From Escherichia coli (GTDB lineage: Bacteria > Pseudomonadota > Gammaproteobacteria > Enterobacterales > Enterobacteriaceae): a stretch of 64,000 bases of DNA. The notes under the pieces are model-generated. The model saw nothing but the letters and a program-made list of their open reading frames with translations. It was not told the DNA's origin and made no database searches. A program made the translations under genes and the position numbers. The stretch is from NCBI RefSeq assembly GCF_024502345.1, contig NZ_JALDNN010000001.1. One strand, written 5' to 3'. Shown here piece after piece: positions 1,628 through 33,270 of the stretch (the first letter of the stretch is position 1; every line of letters starts with the position of its first letter).

Positions 1628-2554
1628 GTGGCAGTCGCCATGGATAATGCAATTTTAGAAAACATCTTGCGGCAAGTGCGGCCGCTCATTGGTCAGGGTA
1701 AAGTCGCGGATTATATTCCGGCGCTGGCTACAGTAGACGGTTCCCGATTGGGCATTGCTATCTGTACCGTTGACGGACAGCTTTTTCAGGCCGGAGACGC
1801 GCAAGAACGTTTTTCCATTCAGTCTATTTCTAAAGTGCTGAGTCTCGTTGTCGCCATGCGTCATTACTCCGAAGAGGAAATCTGGCAACGCGTCGGCAAA
1901 GATCCGTCTGGATCACCGTTCAATTCTTTAGTGCAACTGGAAATGGAGCAGGGTATTCCGCGTAATCCGTTTATTAATGCTGGTGCGCTGGTGGTCTGCG
2001 ATATGTTGCAAGGGCGATTAAGCGCACCACGGCAACGTATGCTGGAAGTCGTGCGCGGCTTAAGCGGTGTGTCTGATATTTCCTACGATACGGTGGTAGC
2101 GCGTTCCGAATTTGAACATTCCGCGCGAAATGCGGCTATCGCCTGGCTGATGAAGTCGTTTGGCAATTTCCATCATGACGTGACAACCGTTCTGCAAAAC
2201 TATTTTCATTACTGCGCTCTGAAAATGAGCTGTGTAGAGCTGGCCCGGACGTTTGTCTTTCTGGCTAATCAGGGGAAAGCTATTCATATTGATGAACCTG
2301 TGGTGACGCCAATGCAGGCACGGCAAATTAACGCGCTGATGGCGACCAGTGGTATGTACCAGAACGCGGGGGAGTTTGCCTGGCGGGTGGGACTACCGGC
2401 GAAATCTGGCGTTGGTGGCGGTATTGTGGCGATTGTTCCGCATGAAATGGCCATCGCAGTCTGGAGTCCGGAACTGGATGATGCAGGTAACTCGCTTGCG
2501 GGTATCGCCGTCCTTGAACAATTGACGAAACAGTTAGGGCGTTCGGTTTATTAA
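1628..2554 (+). CDS. glsB: glutaminase 2
   Basis: 308-aa ORF, serine-dependent glutaminase family, matches recalled YneH/GlsB. Confidence 0.9.
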
Positions 2555-2913
2555 TGCAGTCTCTCGATCCACTCTTCGCGCGTTTATCCCGTTCAAAATT
2601 TCGATCTCGCTTTCGTTTGGGCATGAAAGAGCGTCAGTATTGTCTGGATAAAGGTGCGCCAGTCATCGAACAACATGCAGCAGATTTTGTCGCTAAACGT
2701 CTTGCTCCGGCATTACCGGCTAATGACGGTAAGCAAACCCCCATGCGCGGGCATCCGGTGTTTATCGCTCAGCACGCCACTGCAACCTGTTGTCGCGGTT
2801 GTCTGGCTAAGTGGCATAACATTCCGCAGGGTGTTTCGTTAAGCGAGCAACAACAACATTATATCGTGGCGGTAATCTATTACTGGCTGGTTATACAGAT
2901 GAATCAGCCATGA
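2554..2913 (+). CDS. yneG: DUF-type small protein YneG
   Basis: 119-aa ORF directly after glsB, conserved position in the K-12 gene order. Confidence 0.7.
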   Translation: MQSLDPLFARLSRSKFRSRFRLGMKERQYCLDKGAPVIEQHAADFVAKRLAPALPANDGKQTPMRGHPVFIAQHATATCCRGCLAKWHNIPQGVSLSEQQQHYIVAVIYYWLVIQMNQP

Positions 2914-3051
2914 TAATTGCGGAAAACGATAAAATAGCATTCCCAGGGTACCTTTATTTGCCGCCGCTGTCAGCGAACATGCTATCCTTTATGAGAATTT
3001 ACTTATTACGTTGAGATAATTGCCACCCGCAATTGTATGGACAGATAATTA

Positions 3052-4470
3052 ATGCATGTACACCCCATTTCAACTTTCCGTTTGTTCCAGGAAGGTCATC
3101 TGCTACGTAATAGCATCGCTATTTTTGCGCTAACCACGCTGTTCTATTTTATTGGTGCAGAGTTACGGCTGGTTCACGAACTTTCTCTTTTCTGGCCGCT
3201 GAATGGCGTAATGGCGGGGGTGTTTGCCCGCTATGTCTGGCTTAATCGACTGCATTACTATGCGATCAGTTATGTGGCGATGCTGGTTTATGATGCCATA
3301 ACCACCGAATGGGGACTGGTTTCACTGGCTATCAATTTCTCCAATATGATGTTTATTGTTACCGTCGCCTTACTGGTCGTGCGGGATAAGCGTCTGGGGA
3401 AAAATAAGTATGAGCCAGTAAGTGCCTTACGGCTATTTAATTACTGTCTGATTGCCGCATTATTATGCGCTATTGTCGGGGCGATTGGTTCGGTCAGTAT
3501 TGATAGTCTGGATTTCTGGCCCTTGCTTGCCGACTGGTTCAGTGAGCAATTCTCAACGGGCGTGTTGATCGTGCCTTGTATGCTGACGTTGGCAATTCCT
3601 GGAGTGCTGCCGCGCTTTAAAGCAGAACAGATGATGCCCGCCATCGCGCTTATTGTGTCGGTTATTGCCTCGGTAGTCATTGGCGGAGCGGGGAGTCTGG
3701 CGTTCCCGCTGCCTGCATTAATCTGGTGTGCAGTGCGCTATACGCCGCAGGTAACATGTATGTTGACCTTTGTTACCGGTGCGGTGGAAATCGTACCGGT
3801 GGCTAATTCGGTGATTGATATCTCGGTCGGTTCGCCGTTCTCCATTCCGGAAATGTTCTCCGCACGTCTCGGTATTGCCACGATGGCGATATGCCCAATT
3901 ATGGTTTCTTTTAGCGTGGCAGCGATCAATTCGCTAATGAAGCAAGTTGCGCTGCGAGCCGACTTTGATTTTCTGACTCAGGTTTACTCACGGTCCGGTC
4001 TTTATGAGGCGCTGAAAAGTCCATCGCTGAAACAGACACAACATCTGACTGTCATGCTGCTTGATATCGACTATTTCAAAAGTATTAACGATAACTATGG
4101 ACATGAATGTGGCGATAAAGTGTTAAGCGTGTTTGCCCGGCATATTCAGAAGATTGTCGGTGATAAGGGGCTGGTGGCGCGCATGGGCGGCGAAGAATTT
4201 GCTGTTGCAGTGCCGTCAGTGAATCCTGTCGATGGTCTGCTAATGGCGGAAAAAATCCGTAAAGGCGTTGAACTGCAACCATTCACCTGGCAACAAAAAA
4301 CGCTTTATCTCACGGTAAGTATTGGCGTCGGTAGTGGTCGCGCATCGTACCGAACGCTTACCGATGACTTTAATAAATTGATGGTCGAAGCCGATACCTG
4401 TCTGTATCGCTCGAAGAAAGATGGGCGCAACCGTACCAGCACTATGCGTTACGGGGAGGAAGTTGTCTGA
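3052..4470 (+). CDS. dgcF: membrane-anchored diguanylate cyclase (GGDEF domain)
   Basis: 472-aa ORF, hydrophobic N-terminal half, C-terminal GGDEF domain with RMGGEEF active-site motif. Confidence 0.8.
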   Translation: MHVHPISTFRLFQEGHLLRNSIAIFALTTLFYFIGAELRLVHELSLFWPLNGVMAGVFARYVWLNRLHYYAISYVAMLVYDAITTEWGLVSLAINFSNMMFIVTVALLVVRDKRLGKNKYEPVSALRLFNYCLIAALLCAIVGAIGSVSIDSLDFWPLLADWFSEQFSTGVLIVPCMLTLAIPGVLPRFKAEQMMPAIALIVSVIASVVIGGAGSLAFPLPALIWCAVRYTPQVTCMLTFVTGAVEIVPVANSVIDISVGSPFSIPEMFSARLGIATMAICPIMVSFSVAAINSLMKQVALRADFDFLTQVYSRSGLYEALKSPSLKQTQHLTVMLLDIDYFKSINDNYGHECGDKVLSVFARHIQKIVGDKGLVARMGGEEFAVAVPSVNPVDGLLMAEKIRKGVELQPFTWQQKTLYLTVSIGVGSGRASYRTLTDDFNKLMVEADTCLYRSKKDGRNRTSTMRYGEEVV

Positions 4471-6185: not shown

Positions 6186-6344
6186 CTATATTAGTTACAA
6201 CATCCTATATGCCTTTATCATTAACAGGTGCCACATGCAGCACCTGTTAATGTTGTAAGCTTGTAGATAATTTGTAAGTCGTGTCTTGAGAATGTGATCG
6301 TAATCACGTTTAATAGGGCTACTTTTCCACGCCTGAAGATAACC

Positions 6345-28693: not shown

Positions 28694-29751
28694 GGCTTTG
28701 TTGAATAAATCGAACTTTTGCTGAGTTGAAGGATCAGATCACGTATCTTCCCGACAACGCAGACCGTTCCGTGGCAAAGCAAAAGTTCAAAATCACCAAC
28801 TGGCCCACCTACAATAAAGCCCTCATCAACCGTGGCTCCATAACTTTCTGGCTGGATGATGAAGCTATTCAGGCCTGGTATGAGTCAGCAACACCTTCTT
28901 CACGAGGCAGACCTCAGCGCTATTCTGACCTTGCCATCACGACTGTGCTTGGTCATTAAACGCGTATTCAGGCTGACCCTGCGCGCTGCGCAGGGCTTTA
29001 TTGATTCCATTTTTTCTCTGATGAACGTTCCGCTACGCTGCCCGGATTACAGCTGTGTCAGCAGGCGGGCAAAGTCGGTTAATGTCAGTTTCAAAACGCC
29101 CACCCGGGGTGAAATCGCACACCTGGTAATTGATTCCACCGGGCTGAAGGTCTTCGGTGAAGGCGAGTGGAAAGTCAAAAAGCATGGCCAGGAACGCCGC
29201 CGTATCTGGCGTAAGCTGCATCTCGCCGTTGACAGTAAAACACATGAAATCATCTGCGCTGACCTGTCGCTGAACAACGTTACGGACTCAGAGGCCTTCC
29301 CCGGGTTAATCCGGCAAACCCACCGGAAAATCAGGTCAGCCGCCGCCGATGGCGCTTACGATACCCGGCTATGTCACGATGAACTGCGGCGTAAGAAAAT
29401 CAGCGCGCTTATCCCTCCCCGAAAAGGTGCGGGTTACTGGCCCGGTGAATATGCAGACCGTAACCGTGCAGTGGCTAATCAGCGAATGACCGGGAGTAAT
29501 GCGCGGTGGAAATGGACAACAGATTACAACCGTCGCTCGATAGCGGAAACGGCGATGTACCGGGTAAAACAGCTGTTCGGGGGTTCACTGACACTGCGTG
29601 ACTACGATGGTCAGGTTGCAGAGGCTATGGCCCTGGTACGAGCGCTGAACAAAATGACGAAAGCAGGTATGCCTGAAAGCGTGCGTATTGCCTGAAAACA
29701 CAACCCGCTACGGGGGAGACTTACCCGAAATCTGATTTATTCAACAAAGCC
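28694..29751 (+). mobile_element. IS903-type insertion sequence, copy 3, 1058 bp, frameshifted transposase, no target duplication
   Basis: Extra T (gtgcttggtcatt versus gtgctggtcatt) splits the transposase into ORFs 28726..28959 and 28856..29695; flanks atgggctgt and cctgctgga differ. Confidence 0.9.
28726..29695 (+). pseudogene. IS903-type transposase, frameshifted
   Basis: Two overlapping ORFs together cover the transposase. Confidence 0.85.
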
Positions 29752-30490
29752 CCTGCTGGAACACATTGATCGTATTGAAGATAATATTACTGAATATGAC
29801 CGGATTTTGTCCCGCATGGCAAAAACAGATCACCGCAGCCAGCGATTGATGGAACTGAAAGGGATTGGTCCCACAACGGCCTGTGCGCTGGTCGCCAGTA
29901 TCGGTAATGCACACGATTTTAAAAATGGGCGACAACTGGCAGCCTGGCTGGGACTAACGCCATCGCAGTACAGCAGTGGTGGGAAATCAAAGCTTGGCAG
30001 GATAACTAAAGCTGGCGATTCGTATCTGCGAACGCTACTGGTTCAGAGGGCTCGTTCGGTTCTGATTGGTGCCGAGAAAAGGACTGATTTATTCAGTCGT
30101 TGGGTCTGTTCACTGGTCGATCGCAGAGGATACTGGCGTGCCGTTGTAGCCATCGCCGCCAAAAACGCAAGGCTGTGCTGGCATCATTGCATTACGGTGA
30201 TGATTTCAGGCTGTACTCAGCCAGCTAAAGCACGAAACAAAATAACCATCTGACCTGCAATTCGTTGATGATAAAGGGTTAGACCCCGTGAGGCCTATCT
30301 GGCTATTGTACAGGATATACGTATCCGCTTAACGAACAAGAACCTCACGCGCGTCTTTCATCAGGGTCCGAATCGATGACGATTCATCATGGCCGTTTAT
30401 AGTACCGCAGTCTCTCCCCTTTATTTTTACTGAAGAGCAGACAGAAACCATAAACACCGGCGTTGACACGCCGGGGAAGCCCTTATAGTA
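29752..30490 (+). mobile_element. IS110-family element, 3' fragment (transposase C-terminus plus non-coding end), truncated by IS903 copy 3
   Basis: ORF 29807..30253 matches the C-terminal 140 residues of the transposases at 37205..38269 and 38640..39662; 30254..30490 matches their 3' non-coding ends in reverse complement. Confidence 0.8.
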
Positions 30491-30628
30491 CAATAATTTT
30501 CGAAATCCAACCCATCCCGCCTACAGGAATGACGGATTTTTCGGCGGTTCCGGCGTAGACCCACCACAACTGCTGTATAGCTTGTGGGTAAGTGATAATG
30601 AAGTGCAAACGAGATGGCGCAAATACTC

Positions 30629-30675
30629 TTTTGGTTTATCTTTTAATTACTTACGTATTAAAAGATAAACCAAAA
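30629..30675. repeat. perfect palindrome, 17-bp arms with 13-nt spacer
   Basis: ttttggtttatctttta - attacttacgtat - taaaagataaaccaaaa. Confidence 0.9.
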
Positions 30676-30783
30676 AATAAAAGACATTACTGTTATCCCC
30701 TTTAAAAAGTGGATAACCGAACAGCATCGGCGCGAGCGCCTCAAAAGTAGCTCCCCACGCTAAAGCGCGGGGCATTCAGAACG

Positions 30784-30828
30784 GAATCCCTCGATGGCTA
30801 ACAGCTCGCCTGTTAGCCATCGAGGGAT
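30784..30828. repeat. perfect palindrome, 20-bp arms with 5-nt loop
   Basis: aatccctcgatggctaacag - ctcgc - ctgttagccatcgagggatt. Confidence 0.9.
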
Positions 30829-31127
30829 TGGACAAATCCGGCCACGCCGGATACGTCAGCAAATATCGCTGAAGAATTAGCTTACACGCTCGTAAGCGGC
30901 TCTTACGACCCGCTAACGCGGAGATACGCCCCAACTGCGGCTTCGCCTTGTTGTGACCACTCCGACCGCGCACAAAAGCCTCTGAGCCGCTTTTAGCGGA
31001 ATATGGCTTTGCAAGGTGAAGGGATGGATAGGCGATCCCTTTCGATCCCTCACTGGTATCGGCGGCTAACCCTCGGTGCTACCTGTCATTTCATCCTGCC
31101 GCCTTACATGCGCTAACGCGCATAAAT

Positions 31128-31165
31128 CCCCGTTCCTCAGTGGAACGAAAACTCACGCTAACAGG
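31128..31165 (+). repeat. relic of a Tn3-subgroup 38-bp terminal inverted repeat
   Basis: tccccgttc-CTCAGTGGAACGAAAACTCACG-ctaacag matches the core of the Tn3 repeat GGGGTCTGACGCTCAGTGGAACGAAAACTCACGTTAAG; inner end faces higBA. Confidence 0.6.
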
Positions 31166-31200
31166 GTAGTGACCGGGTAGCCACGATAACTGCCAACAAA

Positions 31201-31251
31201 ATTAGCTTATAGGTTAATTCTACCTTGTCTGAAATTAGCCTATAGGTTAAT
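31201..31251 (+). promoter_or_regulatory. two copies of an 18-bp near-palindrome upstream of higB (candidate operator)
   Basis: attagcttataggttaat (31201..31218) and attagcctataggttaat (31234..31251), followed by tattaat and a GGAGG ribosome-binding site. Confidence 0.55.
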
Positions 31252-31273
31252 ATTAATAGAAATGGGAGGTCAC

Positions 31274-31603
31274 ATGTTTAGCGTTGTTTATCACCCGGAA
31301 GCCAGGGAAGAAGCCACAGCATTACCCGTAAAAATCAGGGTGAAGTTTGACCGTCTCATCGGCAAACTGGAGTATGACGCCCGATTACTGCGGGAGCCGG
31401 ACACGAAGCCCCTGGGCGATGGACTTTTTGAGATCCGCACGATGGGGACGGACATAGCCAGGGGAATCTGGGTATACCACAAAGGCAATACCATCATCAT
31501 GCTCCGTGTTTTCATCAAGAAGTCACAGAAAACGCCAGCGAAAGAAATCGATCTCGCCAAAAAGCGGTTAGCGGAGGTACTTAATGAAACTGGTAAGCCA
31601 TAA
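31274..31603 (+). CDS. higB: RelE/ParE-superfamily toxin (HigB-like)
   Basis: About 110 aa from MFSVVYHPEAREEA; toxin precedes and overlaps an XRE-HTH partner by 20 bp, the HigBA arrangement. Confidence 0.7.
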   Translation: MFSVVYHPEAREEATALPVKIRVKFDRLIGKLEYDARLLREPDTKPLGDGLFEIRTMGTDIARGIWVYHKGNTIIMLRVFIKKSQKTPAKEIDLAKKRLAEVLNETGKP

Positions 31604-31865
31604 AGAACTGCATAACGAGTGGATGCAGGACGATGAATATCGCGCTGCATGGCAGGAAGAAGAACGTAAGGAAAAGCTCAGGGAGCTGCTTGCTGAATGG
31701 CGCAAGCATGACAACCTGACAAAAGCGCAGGTTGCTGAACGCATGGGGGTTACACCTCCGGTTATTTCTCGCCTGGAAAACAACATCACCAAAGCCAGCA
31801 TCGACACACTGACCCGCTACGCTCACGCCTGCGGCATCAAGAAACCTGTCATTGCCCTGTACTGA
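31584..31865 (+). CDS. higA: XRE-family HTH antitoxin (HigA-like)
   Basis: 93 aa; HTH segment LTKAQVAERMGVTPPVISRLEN. Confidence 0.7.
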   Translation: MKLVSHKELHNEWMQDDEYRAAWQEEERKEKLRELLAEWRKHDNLTKAQVAERMGVTPPVISRLENNITKASIDTLTRYAHACGIKKPVIALY

Positions 31866-31867
31866 AT

Positions 31868-31897
31868 AGCCAGCCCTCCGGGGCTGGCCTTTTTGTT
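31868..31897 (+). terminator. rho-independent terminator after higA
   Basis: agccagccc-tccgg-ggctggcc followed by tttttgttt. Confidence 0.7.
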
Positions 31898-32074
31898 TCG
31901 GTCAGTCCCAAAATTTTGTTAAAGCAAGTTTAAAATGTCACCTGTTTCTCCAAAGTTGAAATGTCACTTCTAAGCCAATCTATTTATACATAATCTTTAC
32001 ATCTTTCCCCGGTGACAAAGTGCTAATTGGTCTGTAATGTTCAATGTGTGGCAGGCAAGCCGCCGGTGACTTAG

Positions 32075-33270
<1,196 letters not shown>

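What the first reader, a model, noticed from the sequence alone, without database searches (positions are those of the whole stretch)
30600..31128. Non-coding block with two long perfect palindromes and repeated CGCTAACGCG-like motifs
About 530 bp between the IS110 fragment and the Tn3-type repeat relic has no convincing ORF but contains a 17-bp-arm palindrome (30629..30675) and a 20-bp-arm palindrome with a 5-nt loop (30784..30828), plus several copies of motifs such as cgctaacgcg and acgctaaagcg. Perfect palindromes of this length are unlikely by chance. They suggest a structured RNA or a site-specific recombination or binding site left behind by a mobile element.
Basis: seen in the sequence. 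Interest (0 to 1): 0.5.

Follow-up and report, generated by a model that had tools for sequence, protein, structure and literature searches.

The report
Orphaned IncFII-type plasmid replication origin
The non-coding block is the replication-origin region of an IncFII-like plasmid that lost its initiator gene when an insertion sequence landed between them, so the palindromes are origin DNA elements rather than an RNA gene or a transposon site.

Summary
The window has two perfect palindromes: 19-nt arms at 30629-30675 and 20-nt arms at 30785-30829. They are the two longest in the 64 kb and far beyond chance. CGC-TAAN-GCG mini-hairpins are enriched in the block.

The interpretation needs replacing. 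In intact relatives the same DNA starts about 78 bp after the stop codon of an IncFII-family repA gene. It is collinear with the R100/R1 oriR-"repA4" region. A 101-bp core (30883-30983) is 85% identical to R100 and nearly invariant in 57 distinct sequences from plasmids across Enterobacterales. It always lies 500-770 bp downstream of a RepA gene wherever one is detectable.

Palindrome 1 is the AT-rich heart of the minimal origin. It is the best conserved segment, has 20% GC, carries R100-like TATCTTTTAA motifs, and shows one compensatory change. Palindrome 2 is lineage-specific. It sits where other IncFII replicons carry a GC hairpin plus a Tus-binding Ter site, and it is usually imperfect (15/20). 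The perfect form here looks like a corrected quasi-palindrome.

An IS110-family element ending at 30488 severed repA, and no repA remains in the window. The block is therefore an inert origin relic, spread together with the adjacent toxin-antitoxin pair. It is ordinary and of a known kind.

The parts
30254..30488 (+). Boundary only: the 3' non-coding end of the IS110-family insertion sequence. Its transposase CDS fragment is 29807-30253 and its right terminus reads ...CCCTTATAG.
   Evidence: Related IS copies in unrelated contexts (L081, L082, L083) share this right end; beyond it the flanks share only the short IR-like target sequence and then diverge. Annotated as an IS110 family transposase in L001 and L003.
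30489..30519 (-). The outer 31 bp of a 38-bp Tn3-family-type inverted-repeat-like sequence (GGGG...TTGTA|CGTTAAG). This is the target into which the IS inserted. In intact relatives it lies about 45-85 bp after the repA stop codon.
   Evidence: The left and right flanks of the IS in L001, L081, L082 and L083 reconstitute the same 38-mer. The uninterrupted version is seen in L004 and L020.
30566..30775 (.). Candidate minimal origin of the K-type (pCTU2-like) IncFII-superfamily replicon.
   Evidence: It stays 79-98% identical in the diverged replicons L085 and L086, while the 77 bp upstream drop to 36-41%. It is collinear with R100 oriR.
30583..30591 (-). DnaA-box-like 9-mer TTACCCACA (8/9 to TTATCCACA).
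   Evidence: Pattern scan. Invariant in all five K-type origins.
30629..30675 (.). Palindrome 1: a perfect 19-nt-arm, AT-rich inverted repeat with a 9-nt spacer. Proposed unwinding element carrying inverted RepA-contact-like motifs (TATCTTTTAA).
   Evidence: Lowest GC of the region, 20%. Most conserved segment, 94-100%. Compensatory G>T/C>A at 30634/30670 in L018. 10/10 matches of both arms to R100 oriR TATCTTTTAA, and a collinear match to the R100 AT-rich stretch.
30692..30717 (.). Inverted pair of DnaA-box-like 9-mers (GTTATCCCC ... GTGGATAAC). The minus-strand box TTATCCACT is at 30708-30716.
   Evidence: Inverted repeat I6. Pattern scan. Conserved in K-type origins.
30753..30772 (.). It is terminator-like on the minus strand.
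   Evidence: Terminator-like scan hit. Fold. Conserved in all K-type origins; homology to L085 ends just after it.
30785..30829 (.). Palindrome 2: a perfect 20-nt-arm inverted repeat with a 5-nt spacer. It is a lineage-specific quasi-palindrome occupying the position of the GC hairpin plus Ter site of other IncFII replicons.
   Evidence: Three arm-sequence states plus one spacer inversion among relatives. Aligned opposite CGGCCC-GAA-GGGCCG + GTTGTAAC in other replicons.
30883..30983 (.). Ultra-conserved core, homologous to the 3' part of the R100/R1 'repA4' region just beyond terRR. This is the region of the leading-strand start (primase G site). It contains the CGCTAACGCG motif.
   Evidence: 85% identity to R100 over 103 aligned positions, E 3e-28. 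Near-invariant in 57 distinct sequences. It lies 500-770 bp downstream of RepA genes. The R1 layout is from PMC10331603.
31108..31123 (.). Terminal stem-loop ATGCGC-TAAC-GCGCAT, the second CGCTAACGCG. It marks the right end of the shared replicon module.
   Evidence: The stem is kept as a 6-bp or a 7-bp version (symmetric C/G insertion), with 5 different loops across replicon types. Sequences diverge right after it. Fold z -3.2.
31128..31165 (+). Neighbour: a partial Tn3-type terminal repeat (inner ~27 bp) with its inner end pointing right.
   Evidence: Read from the sequence. Also present, diverged, in F-like plasmid L006 and in K-type plasmids. The similarity to the Tn3 IR rests on my own knowledge.
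31262..31865 (+). Neighbour that travels with the block: a RelE/ParE-family toxin (31262-31603) and an HTH antitoxin (31584-31865). It occupies the position that pemIK holds in R100.
   Evidence: ORFs. RefSeq annotation of identical DNA. R100 layout.

Best explanation
The block, really about 30489-31123, is the cis-acting origin region of an IncFII-superfamily plasmid replicon, a 'K-type' lineage related to pCTU2. In the intact plasmid the order is: repA, a short spacer, the minimal origin (DnaA-box-like 9-mers, AT-rich palindrome 1, a second DnaA-box pair, a GC stem-loop), a spacer with palindrome 2, a roughly 100-bp hairpin-rich core, a terminal stem-loop, and a toxin-antitoxin pair.

By analogy with R1/R100 (inferred, not tested here), RepA made in cis binds the origin together with DnaA and opens the AT-rich palindrome, and DnaB is loaded. 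The conserved core, once single-stranded, is where primase lays down the leading-strand primer. Replication then runs unidirectionally away from repA.

Palindrome 2 sits where R1/R100 have the terRR site of a Tus-Ter fork trap. Its function is unknown. Its perfect form is most simply explained as hairpin-templated correction of an imperfect ancestral quasi-palindrome.

In this window an IS110-family element inserted 78 bp after the repA stop codon, into a Tn3-type repeat-like target. Later IS events removed repA. The origin is therefore an orphan and most likely inert, and it persists because it is linked to the toxin-antitoxin module and to IS-mediated spread.
For: 1. Position. In L004 and L005 the homologous DNA begins right after an annotated RepA gene of IncFII-typed plasmids. 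That RepA matches Pfam IncFII_repA (E 2e-8) and NCBIfam RepA_IncFII_LM (E 3e-15, below the cutoff).

2. Generality. The 23-nt core motif was found in 61 loci across Enterobacterales. In about 40 of the 55 or so with enough upstream flank, a RepA or candidate initiator gene ends about 500-770 bp upstream on the same strand. The types are classic IncFII, RepA_IncFII_LM, K-type, and two unclassified candidate initiator families.

3. Homology to the reference replicon. Window 30883-30983 is 85% identical to R100 (E 3e-28). There are further collinear matches at the AT-rich segment and at the terminal hairpin. R100 has the layout repA, DnaA box, AT-rich region, two inverted Ter cores, core, tir, pemIK.

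4. Literature. In IncFII replicons ori lies between repA1 and repA4. The repA4 region holds the ter sites, and together with oriV it was required for maintenance in a transposon screen (PMC4398462). A DnaA box and oriR lie downstream of repA1 (PMC2762410). In R1 the two ter sites lie between oriR and the leading-strand start (PMC10331603).

5. Palindrome 1. It is the GC minimum of the region and the most conserved segment. It carries a compensatory pair change and R100-like TATCTTTTAA motifs in both arms.

6. Orphan status. No Rep homologue was found in the 64 kb. The IS boundary is at 30488. Only 61 plasmid records hold intact repA+ori, whereas hundreds start at the IS junction. 212 records carry at least 80% of the block, and 315 match at 99% identity or more.
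Against: No experiment on this K-type origin was found, so every functional role is by analogy.

The arrangement differs from R1/R100. The best DnaA box lies distal to the AT-rich region rather than proximal to it. No Ter site is present in the block.

The priming site cannot be pinned down. The minus-strand CTG that R100 has at the end of the core reads TTG in the window. The plus-strand CTG of the window (30935) reads CTT in R100. There is no significant similarity to phage G4 oric.

The core is so invariant that base-pair covariation cannot be assessed.

The K-type RepA scores below the NCBIfam cutoff (56.8 against 70).
Confidence: 0.85

Rival explanations
1. The orphan origin is still functional in trans. 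A co-resident plasmid with a matching RepA could fire it, or it could titrate RepA and so act as an incompatibility or exclusion determinant against incoming K-type plasmids.
For: All recognisable origin elements are intact and 100% identical in more than 200 records. Intact K-type plasmids circulate in the same hosts. The block is never seen degraded in the loci examined.
Against: By my own knowledge, IncFII RepA proteins act strongly in cis. The IS sits in the very spacer that couples repA to ori, and there is no repA in the window. The identity among copies can be explained by recent IS-mediated spread rather than by selection.
Confidence: 0.12
2. The block encodes a structured non-coding RNA. 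This was one of the first reader's alternative proposals.
For: There are many stable stem-loops. One stem-loop, on the minus strand at 30772-30753, looks like an intrinsic terminator.
Against: There is no Rfam match at gathering score. No promoter-like site was found on either strand, where shuffles give 1.0. The long palindromes are symmetric and fold equally well on both strands. The homologous R100 region is known as a DNA-level origin/terminus region.
Confidence: 0.04
3. The palindromes are part of a neighbouring mobile element. They could be the non-coding end or guide (bridge) RNA region of the IS110-family element, or a res or terminal site of a Tn3-family transposon.
For: IS110-family elements carry functional non-coding ends. 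Tn3-type repeat-like sequences flank the block on both sides.
Against: Related IS copies in three other contexts all end at the position equivalent to 30488. The block occurs without the IS directly after repA. Both Tn3-like repeats have their outer ends facing the block, so the block lies outside them. No resolvase or transposase is associated with it.
Confidence: 0.02

Closest known systems
oriR-'repA4' region of IncFII plasmids R1 / R100 (NR1)
   Same: The position is the same, directly downstream of an IncFII-family repA. The order is the same: DnaA box or boxes, AT-rich segment with TATCTTTTAA motifs, spacer, conserved core, terminal GC stem-loop, then a toxin-antitoxin module. The core is 85% identical.
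   Different: The initiator is a distant 233-aa RepA subfamily. The best DnaA box is distal to the AT-rich region. The AT-rich segment is a perfect 19-bp palindrome. Both Tus-binding ter sites are absent and a 20-bp palindrome takes their place. The toxin-antitoxin pair is RelE/HTH rather than PemIK. Here the origin is severed from repA.
K-type replicons with intact repA: pRHBSTW-00832_5 (L004), pCTU2 of Cronobacter turicensis (L086), and the 87-kb Klebsiella plasmid pKP20194a2-p3 (L085)
   Same: The minimal origin is the same, 79-100% identical over 30566-30775, and so is the core.
   Different: These plasmids retain repA. L085 has a Ter-containing spacer instead of palindrome 2. L086 and most others have an imperfect palindrome 2.
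Primase-dependent priming signals (G sites), for example the phage G4 origin of complementary-strand synthesis
   Same: Both are clusters of short GC stem-loops in DNA that becomes single-stranded, with a candidate CTG start next to a C-rich run. G4 reads CCGTCCCTACTGC and the window reads ACGCCCCAACTGC.
   Different: Overall alignment to G4 oric is no better than shuffles. The active strand and the start nucleotide are unresolved. Priming was not tested.
Tus-Ter replication fork trap of R1 (terRL/terRR)
   Same: Palindrome 2 occupies the same slot, between the minimal origin and the leading-strand start region.
   Different: There is no Ter consensus in the block, and no evidence that the palindrome arrests forks.

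Membership tests
IncFII-type replication origin region (R1/R100 oriR + repA4 region) | Lies immediately downstream of, and on the same strand as, an IncFII-family repA gene | tested here: met
   Met in intact relatives. L004, L005, L018, L020, L021 and L059 have repA ending about 500 bp upstream of the core motif. The RepA matches Pfam IncFII_repA, E 2e-8. In the window itself repA is missing, so this copy is an orphan.
IncFII-type replication origin region (R1/R100 oriR + repA4 region) | DnaA box plus adjacent AT-rich segment | tested here: met
   TTATCCACT is at 30708-30716(-) and TTACCCACA at 30583-30591(-), each 8/9 to TTATCCACA. There is a 20%-GC trough at 30620-30679. The order of box and AT-rich segment differs from R100.
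IncFII-type replication origin region (R1/R100 oriR + repA4 region) | Sequence homology to the reference origin region | tested here: met
   85% identity over 103 aligned positions to R100, E 3e-28, plus collinear short matches at the AT-rich segment and the terminal hairpin.
IncFII-type replication origin region (R1/R100 oriR + repA4 region) | Two oppositely oriented Tus-binding ter sites between the minimal origin and the leading-strand start | tested here: not met
   R100 has GTTGTAAC cores at L068 10079(-) and 10217(+). The window block has none, and its only near matches have 2 mismatches and occur at chance frequency. Palindrome 2 is in that slot.
IncFII-type replication origin region (R1/R100 oriR + repA4 region) | RepA-dependent initiation of replication from this DNA | not testable with these tools
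   Needs a replication assay.
Primase-dependent priming signal (G site / G4-type ssi) | Stem-loops in the template strand next to a 5'-CTG-3' primer start | tested here: inconclusive
   Stem-loops are present. The minus strand of 30880-31005 folds with z -2.7 and the plus strand with z -1.3. CTG is at 30935 on the plus strand. The minus-strand CTG seen in R100 and in most relatives is TTG here.
Primase-dependent priming signal (G site / G4-type ssi) | Primase-only conversion of single-stranded DNA carrying the site | not testable with these tools
   Needs an M13-based ssi assay or in-vitro priming.
IS110/IS1111-family element end (including a guide/bridge RNA region) | Contiguous with the IS and moving with it | tested here: not met
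   The IS ends at 30488 in four independent contexts. The block is found without the IS.
Rfam RNA families | Covariance-model score at or above the gathering threshold | tested here: not met
   The best hit is HgcC, 32.2 bits against 50. All others are below 25 bits.

The most novel reading that the evidence does not exclude
In this replicon lineage the Tus-Ter fork trap of classical IncFII plasmids has been replaced by a long hairpin-forming quasi-palindrome. On this reading the palindrome really extrudes in vivo next to the origin. The evidence for extrusion is that it has been repeatedly 'perfected' by hairpin-templated repair and that its spacer has flipped. It may then act as a protein-independent, or differently recognised, barrier or pause site that enforces unidirectional replication.
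Probability: 0.15. Interest if true: 0.45.

Novelty: new member of a known kind. Interest (0 to 1): 0.22.

Why it matters
The main value is for annotation. This 0.6-kb block is unannotated in the records examined, although 770 plasmid records and 12 places on E. coli chromosomes match it. It can mislead replicon typing, or be mistaken for an RNA gene or a recombination site. Recognising it as an orphan IncFII-type origin linked to a toxin-antitoxin pair shows how pieces of plasmid backbone survive inside IS mosaics, here in what looks like a chromosomal island. There is a smaller scientific point. The comparison defines a candidate minimal origin for a poorly studied RepA subfamily. It also shows that the Ter-site slot of IncFII replicons is an exchangeable cassette.

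Tried and rejected
- **Rfam.** A permissive Rfam search of 29500-32500 gave only sub-threshold hits (HgcC and miRNA-like hits on the hairpins), so a known RNA family was rejected.
- **Promoters.** The promoter scan found none.
- **IS110 non-coding end.** I tested whether the block is the non-coding end of the IS110 element. It is not; the IS boundary is at 30488.
- **IS target preference.** I tested whether the IS relatives always sit next to repA. They do not. They target a Tn3-type repeat wherever it occurs.
- **Covariation in the small hairpins.** The core is too invariant for this test. One candidate stem (T30890-A30895) is in fact broken in most relatives. Only the terminal hairpin and the two long palindromes gave usable symmetric changes.
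- **Phage G4 oric.** The alignment is no better than shuffles.
- **Primary literature.** The primary papers on oriR, the G site and repA4 (PMC206589, PMC390076, PMC98921, PMC4441207) are not held. Four literature searches for the G site or for oriR and leading-strand priming gave nothing usable. The G-site assignment therefore rests on position, on the review read, and on my own knowledge.
- **Cluster look-up of the K-type RepA.** This gave only a generic name.

Full report
**1. Checking the observation**

The repeat finder gives a 19-nt-arm perfect inverted repeat at 30629-30647 / 30657-30675 with a 9-nt spacer. It gives a 20-nt-arm perfect inverted repeat at 30785-30804 / 30810-30829 with a 5-nt spacer.

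These are the two longest perfect hairpin-type repeats in the 64 kb; the next has 13-nt arms. None of 3000 Markov shuffles of the block exceeded 11 nt. As single-stranded DNA both strands fold with z-scores of -7.5 to -10.2.

The short motifs are also real and enriched. CGCTAA-N(1-2)-GCG occurs four times in 529 bp and three times in the remaining 63.5 kb. Each copy is a small GC stem with a TAAN loop. No ORF of 40 aa or more lies on the + strand, and the longest on the minus strand is 65 aa.

**2. Where the block comes from**

The 611 bp at 30560-31170 match 770 plasmid records, mainly Klebsiella, Citrobacter and Escherichia. Of these, 315 match at 99% identity or more. The same DNA occurs at 12 chromosomal places in E. 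coli. All but one of the 60 listed matches have no annotated feature under them.

I mapped boundaries with a 3-kb query and found two independent units. One is an IS110-family insertion sequence. The other is the block, which continues into a RelE/ParE-HTH toxin-antitoxin pair.

In plasmids that lack the IS (L004, L005) the block begins directly after an annotated RepA gene of IncFII-typed plasmids. In an F-like plasmid (L006) its distal half follows the classical IncFII repA.

The IS junction is exact. The IS ends ...CCCTTATAG at 30488, and the plasmid sequence resumes with TACAATAATTTTCG. This point is 78 bp after the repA stop codon in L004.

**3. It is an IncFII-type origin region**

The 233-aa RepA of the intact relatives matches Pfam IncFII_repA (E 2e-8). 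It also weakly matches NCBIfam RepA_IncFII_LM.

A scan of one genome per species for the 23-nt motif CCGCTAACGCGGAGATACGCCCC (window 30910-30932) returned 61 loci. They came from Klebsiella, Citrobacter, Enterobacter, Pantoea, Erwinia, Yersinia, Serratia, Pectobacterium, Edwardsiella and others. In about 40 of the 55 or so loci with enough upstream sequence, a RepA or candidate initiator gene ends about 500-770 bp upstream on the same strand. The types seen were classical IncFII RepA, RepA_IncFII_LM, the K-type RepA, and two further unclassified candidate initiator families. The remaining loci had other ORFs or none in that position.

Against the reference plasmid R100 (L068), window 30883-30983 is 85% identical (E 3e-28). 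Weaker matches are collinear. The loop and right arm of palindrome 1 (30643-30671) align with the AT-rich end of R100 oriR, and 31097-31124 aligns with a GC stem-loop 224 bp beyond the core.

R100 itself reads, in order:
- repA
- DnaA box TTATCCACA, 176 bp downstream
- AT-rich segment
- two oppositely oriented Ter cores
- the core motif
- tir
- pemIK

Published descriptions agree:
- ori lies between repA1 and repA4. The repA4 region carries the ter sites and, with oriV, was needed for plasmid maintenance in a transposon screen (PMC4398462).
- A DnaA box and oriR lie downstream of repA1 (PMC2762410).
- In R1 the two ter sites lie between the minimal origin and the start site of leading-strand synthesis. 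terRL stops the counter-clockwise fork at once, and terRR stops the clockwise fork after it has copied the plasmid (PMC10331603).

The conserved core of the window therefore corresponds, by position and by sequence, to the region just beyond terRR where the leading strand starts. From my own knowledge (Masai and Arai 1989; Tanaka et al. 1994; these papers are not held here), that start is a primase-dependent 'G site'.

**4. Anatomy of the window's copy**

Two diverged K-type replicons let me see what is constrained: an 87-kb Klebsiella plasmid (L085) and pCTU2 of Cronobacter (L086). Identity to the window by segment was as follows.

| Segment | Content | Identity in L085 / L086 |
|---|---|---|
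| 30489-30565 | IR-like target and spacer | 41% / 36% |
| 30566-30775 | candidate minimal origin | 79-98% |
| 30629-30675 | palindrome 1 (within the origin) | 94% / 98% |
| 30776-30882 | spacer with palindrome 2 | 38% / 76% |
| 30883-30983 | core | 94% / 87% |

I therefore take 30566-30775 as the candidate minimal origin. It contains:
- a DnaA-box-like TTACCCACA at 30583-30591 on the minus strand;
- palindrome 1;
- an inverted pair of DnaA-box-like 9-mers at 30692-30717, with TTATCCACT on the minus strand;
- the stem-loop CCCCACGC-TAAA-GCGCGGGG at 30753-30772.

**5. Palindrome 1**

Palindrome 1 coincides with the GC minimum of the region, at 20%. Both of its arms contain TATCTTTTAA, which matches R100 oriR 10/10. 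A third similar motif, TATCCCCTTTAAA, follows at 30694 and matches R100 12/13. From my own knowledge, TCNTTTAAA is the motif shared by the RepA contact sites of R1 oriR.

In Pectobacterium (L018) a G>T change at 30634 is matched by C>A at its partner 30670, which keeps the symmetry.

My reading, which is inference, is that palindrome 1 is the unwinding element and that it carries an inverted pair of initiator contacts.

**6. Palindrome 2**

Palindrome 2 is not a conserved perfect palindrome. I compared 23 loci that keep the flanks.

| Form of palindrome 2 | Loci |
|---|---|
| Imperfect, 15 of 20 pairs (left arm AATCGTGAGAGGGCTAACAG) | 12, from several genera and metagenomes |
| Perfect, T-A at arm position 11 (the window's form) | 8 |
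| Perfect, G-C at arm position 11 (L004, L079) | 2 |
| The window's arms with the 5-nt spacer inverted, GCGAG instead of CTCGC (L043) | 1 |

In classical IncFII, RepA_IncFII_LM and even one K-type replicon (L085), the same slot holds a GC hairpin (CGGCCC-GAA-GGGCCG) followed by a Ter site. The window block has no Ter site.

This pattern has three features: a block of four adjacent changes on one arm, symmetric pair changes, and a flipped spacer. It is what hairpin-templated correction and arm-to-arm exchange of a quasi-palindrome produce (inference). It argues that the sequence does form a hairpin or cruciform at least occasionally. It does not show a function. I found no basis for assigning one beyond its position.

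**7. The small motifs**

The copy at 30911 is inside the invariant core. The copy at 31111 is the loop and stem of a terminal hairpin. Across replicon types that hairpin's stem is kept as ATGCGC/GCGCAT or ATGCCGC/GCGGCAT, a symmetric insertion. Its loop varies (TAAC, TGAC, TGGC, TGAT, TGTC), and homology between replicons ends just after it. The copy at 30758 is the loop of the GC stem-loop that closes the minimal origin.

These motifs are therefore independent small stem-loops of the origin region, not copies of one repeat family. Which strand is used for priming could not be settled. R100 and most relatives have a minus-strand CTG at the right end of the core, and this suits rightward leading-strand synthesis. 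The window and L004 read TTG there. The window has a plus-strand CTG at 30935 in a context resembling the G4 start (ACGCCCCAACTGC against CCGTCCCTACTGC), but R100 reads CTT there. Overall similarity to G4 oric is no better than shuffles.

**8. Why it is here, and its state**

The IS110-family element is inserted in a 38-bp sequence of the form GGGG...TTGTACGTTAAG, a Tn3-family-type terminal repeat. The flanks of related IS copies in three other contexts reconstitute the same kind of 38-mer. This behaviour is like that known for IS4321/IS5075 (my own knowledge). In this sub-lineage of K-type plasmids, such a repeat-like sequence happens to lie between repA and the origin.

In the window the IS is itself truncated, and nothing resembling any of the seven Rep proteins tested is encoded anywhere in the 64 kb. 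Only 61 plasmid records hold an intact repA+ori of this type, whereas several hundred start at the IS junction. The orphan version is thus the common one.

The left end of the window looks chromosomal. ORFs resembling uxaB, yneE, tam and lsrG/F are present (my recognition from the translations), with a perfect Ter consensus at 6192-6205. The middle of the window matches E. coli chromosomes and plasmids only piecewise. The block therefore sits in an IS-rich mosaic island. Without repA in cis the origin is most likely silent. A trans effect, either firing or initiator titration, remains possible but is untested.

**9. Verdict**

This is an orphaned IncFII-type plasmid origin region of an uncharacterised RepA subfamily.

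The only mildly unusual point is the exchange of the Ter-site cassette for a hairpin-prone quasi-palindrome.

Noticed in passing
window 29807-30519; loci L081, L082, L083: The IS110-family element is inserted site-specifically in a 38-bp Tn3-family-type terminal-repeat-like sequence (GGGG...TTGTA|CGTTAAG). Flanks of 88-90%-identical IS copies in three unrelated plasmids rebuild the same kind of 38-mer. This resembles the repeat-targeting of IS4321/IS5075.
   Followed up: partly
window 6192-6205 (-) and 6219-6252: There is a perfect match to the Tus-binding Ter consensus (GGATGTTGTAACTA) between ORFs that look like uxaB and yneE. A 13-nt-arm palindrome lies beside it. This looks like a chromosomal terminus site (TerC-like), which implies the window is chromosomal and that the plasmid-derived mosaic lies about 25 kb away.
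   Followed up: partly
window 31199-31251: Two 20-nt direct repeats, AAATTAGCYTATAGGTTAAT, lie 33 bp apart. The downstream copy has a palindromic centre in the repeat search (I7). They sit just upstream of the RelE/ParE-family toxin gene and are probably the operator of the toxin-antitoxin promoter.
   Followed up: no
window 31128-31165; L006: The partial Tn3-type repeat right of the block is also present, diverged, at the same place in an E. coli F-like plasmid and in other K-type plasmids. It is therefore an old backbone feature rather than a recent transposon scar.
   Followed up: partly
loci L015, L016, L022, L028, L031-L033, L050, L063: The enterobacterial origin core motif, sometimes with IncFII repA, appears in assemblies labelled Clostridiales, Lachnospiraceae, Collinsella, Streptomyces, Sporosarcina and Capnocytophaga. 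This is probably contamination or mis-binned plasmid contigs.
   Followed up: no
locus L085 (pKP20194a2-p3) 2150-3075: A K-type RepA and minimal origin are joined to a Ter-containing spacer of the classical IncFII kind, whereas the window's lineage has palindrome 2 there. The slot between the minimal origin and the core behaves as an exchangeable cassette.
   Followed up: partly
locus L043 (Klebsiella michiganensis plasmid contig): It has the same perfect 20-nt arms as the window, but the 5-nt spacer is inverted (GCGAG instead of CTCGC). This points to a flip of the palindrome centre by arm-to-arm exchange.
   Followed up: no
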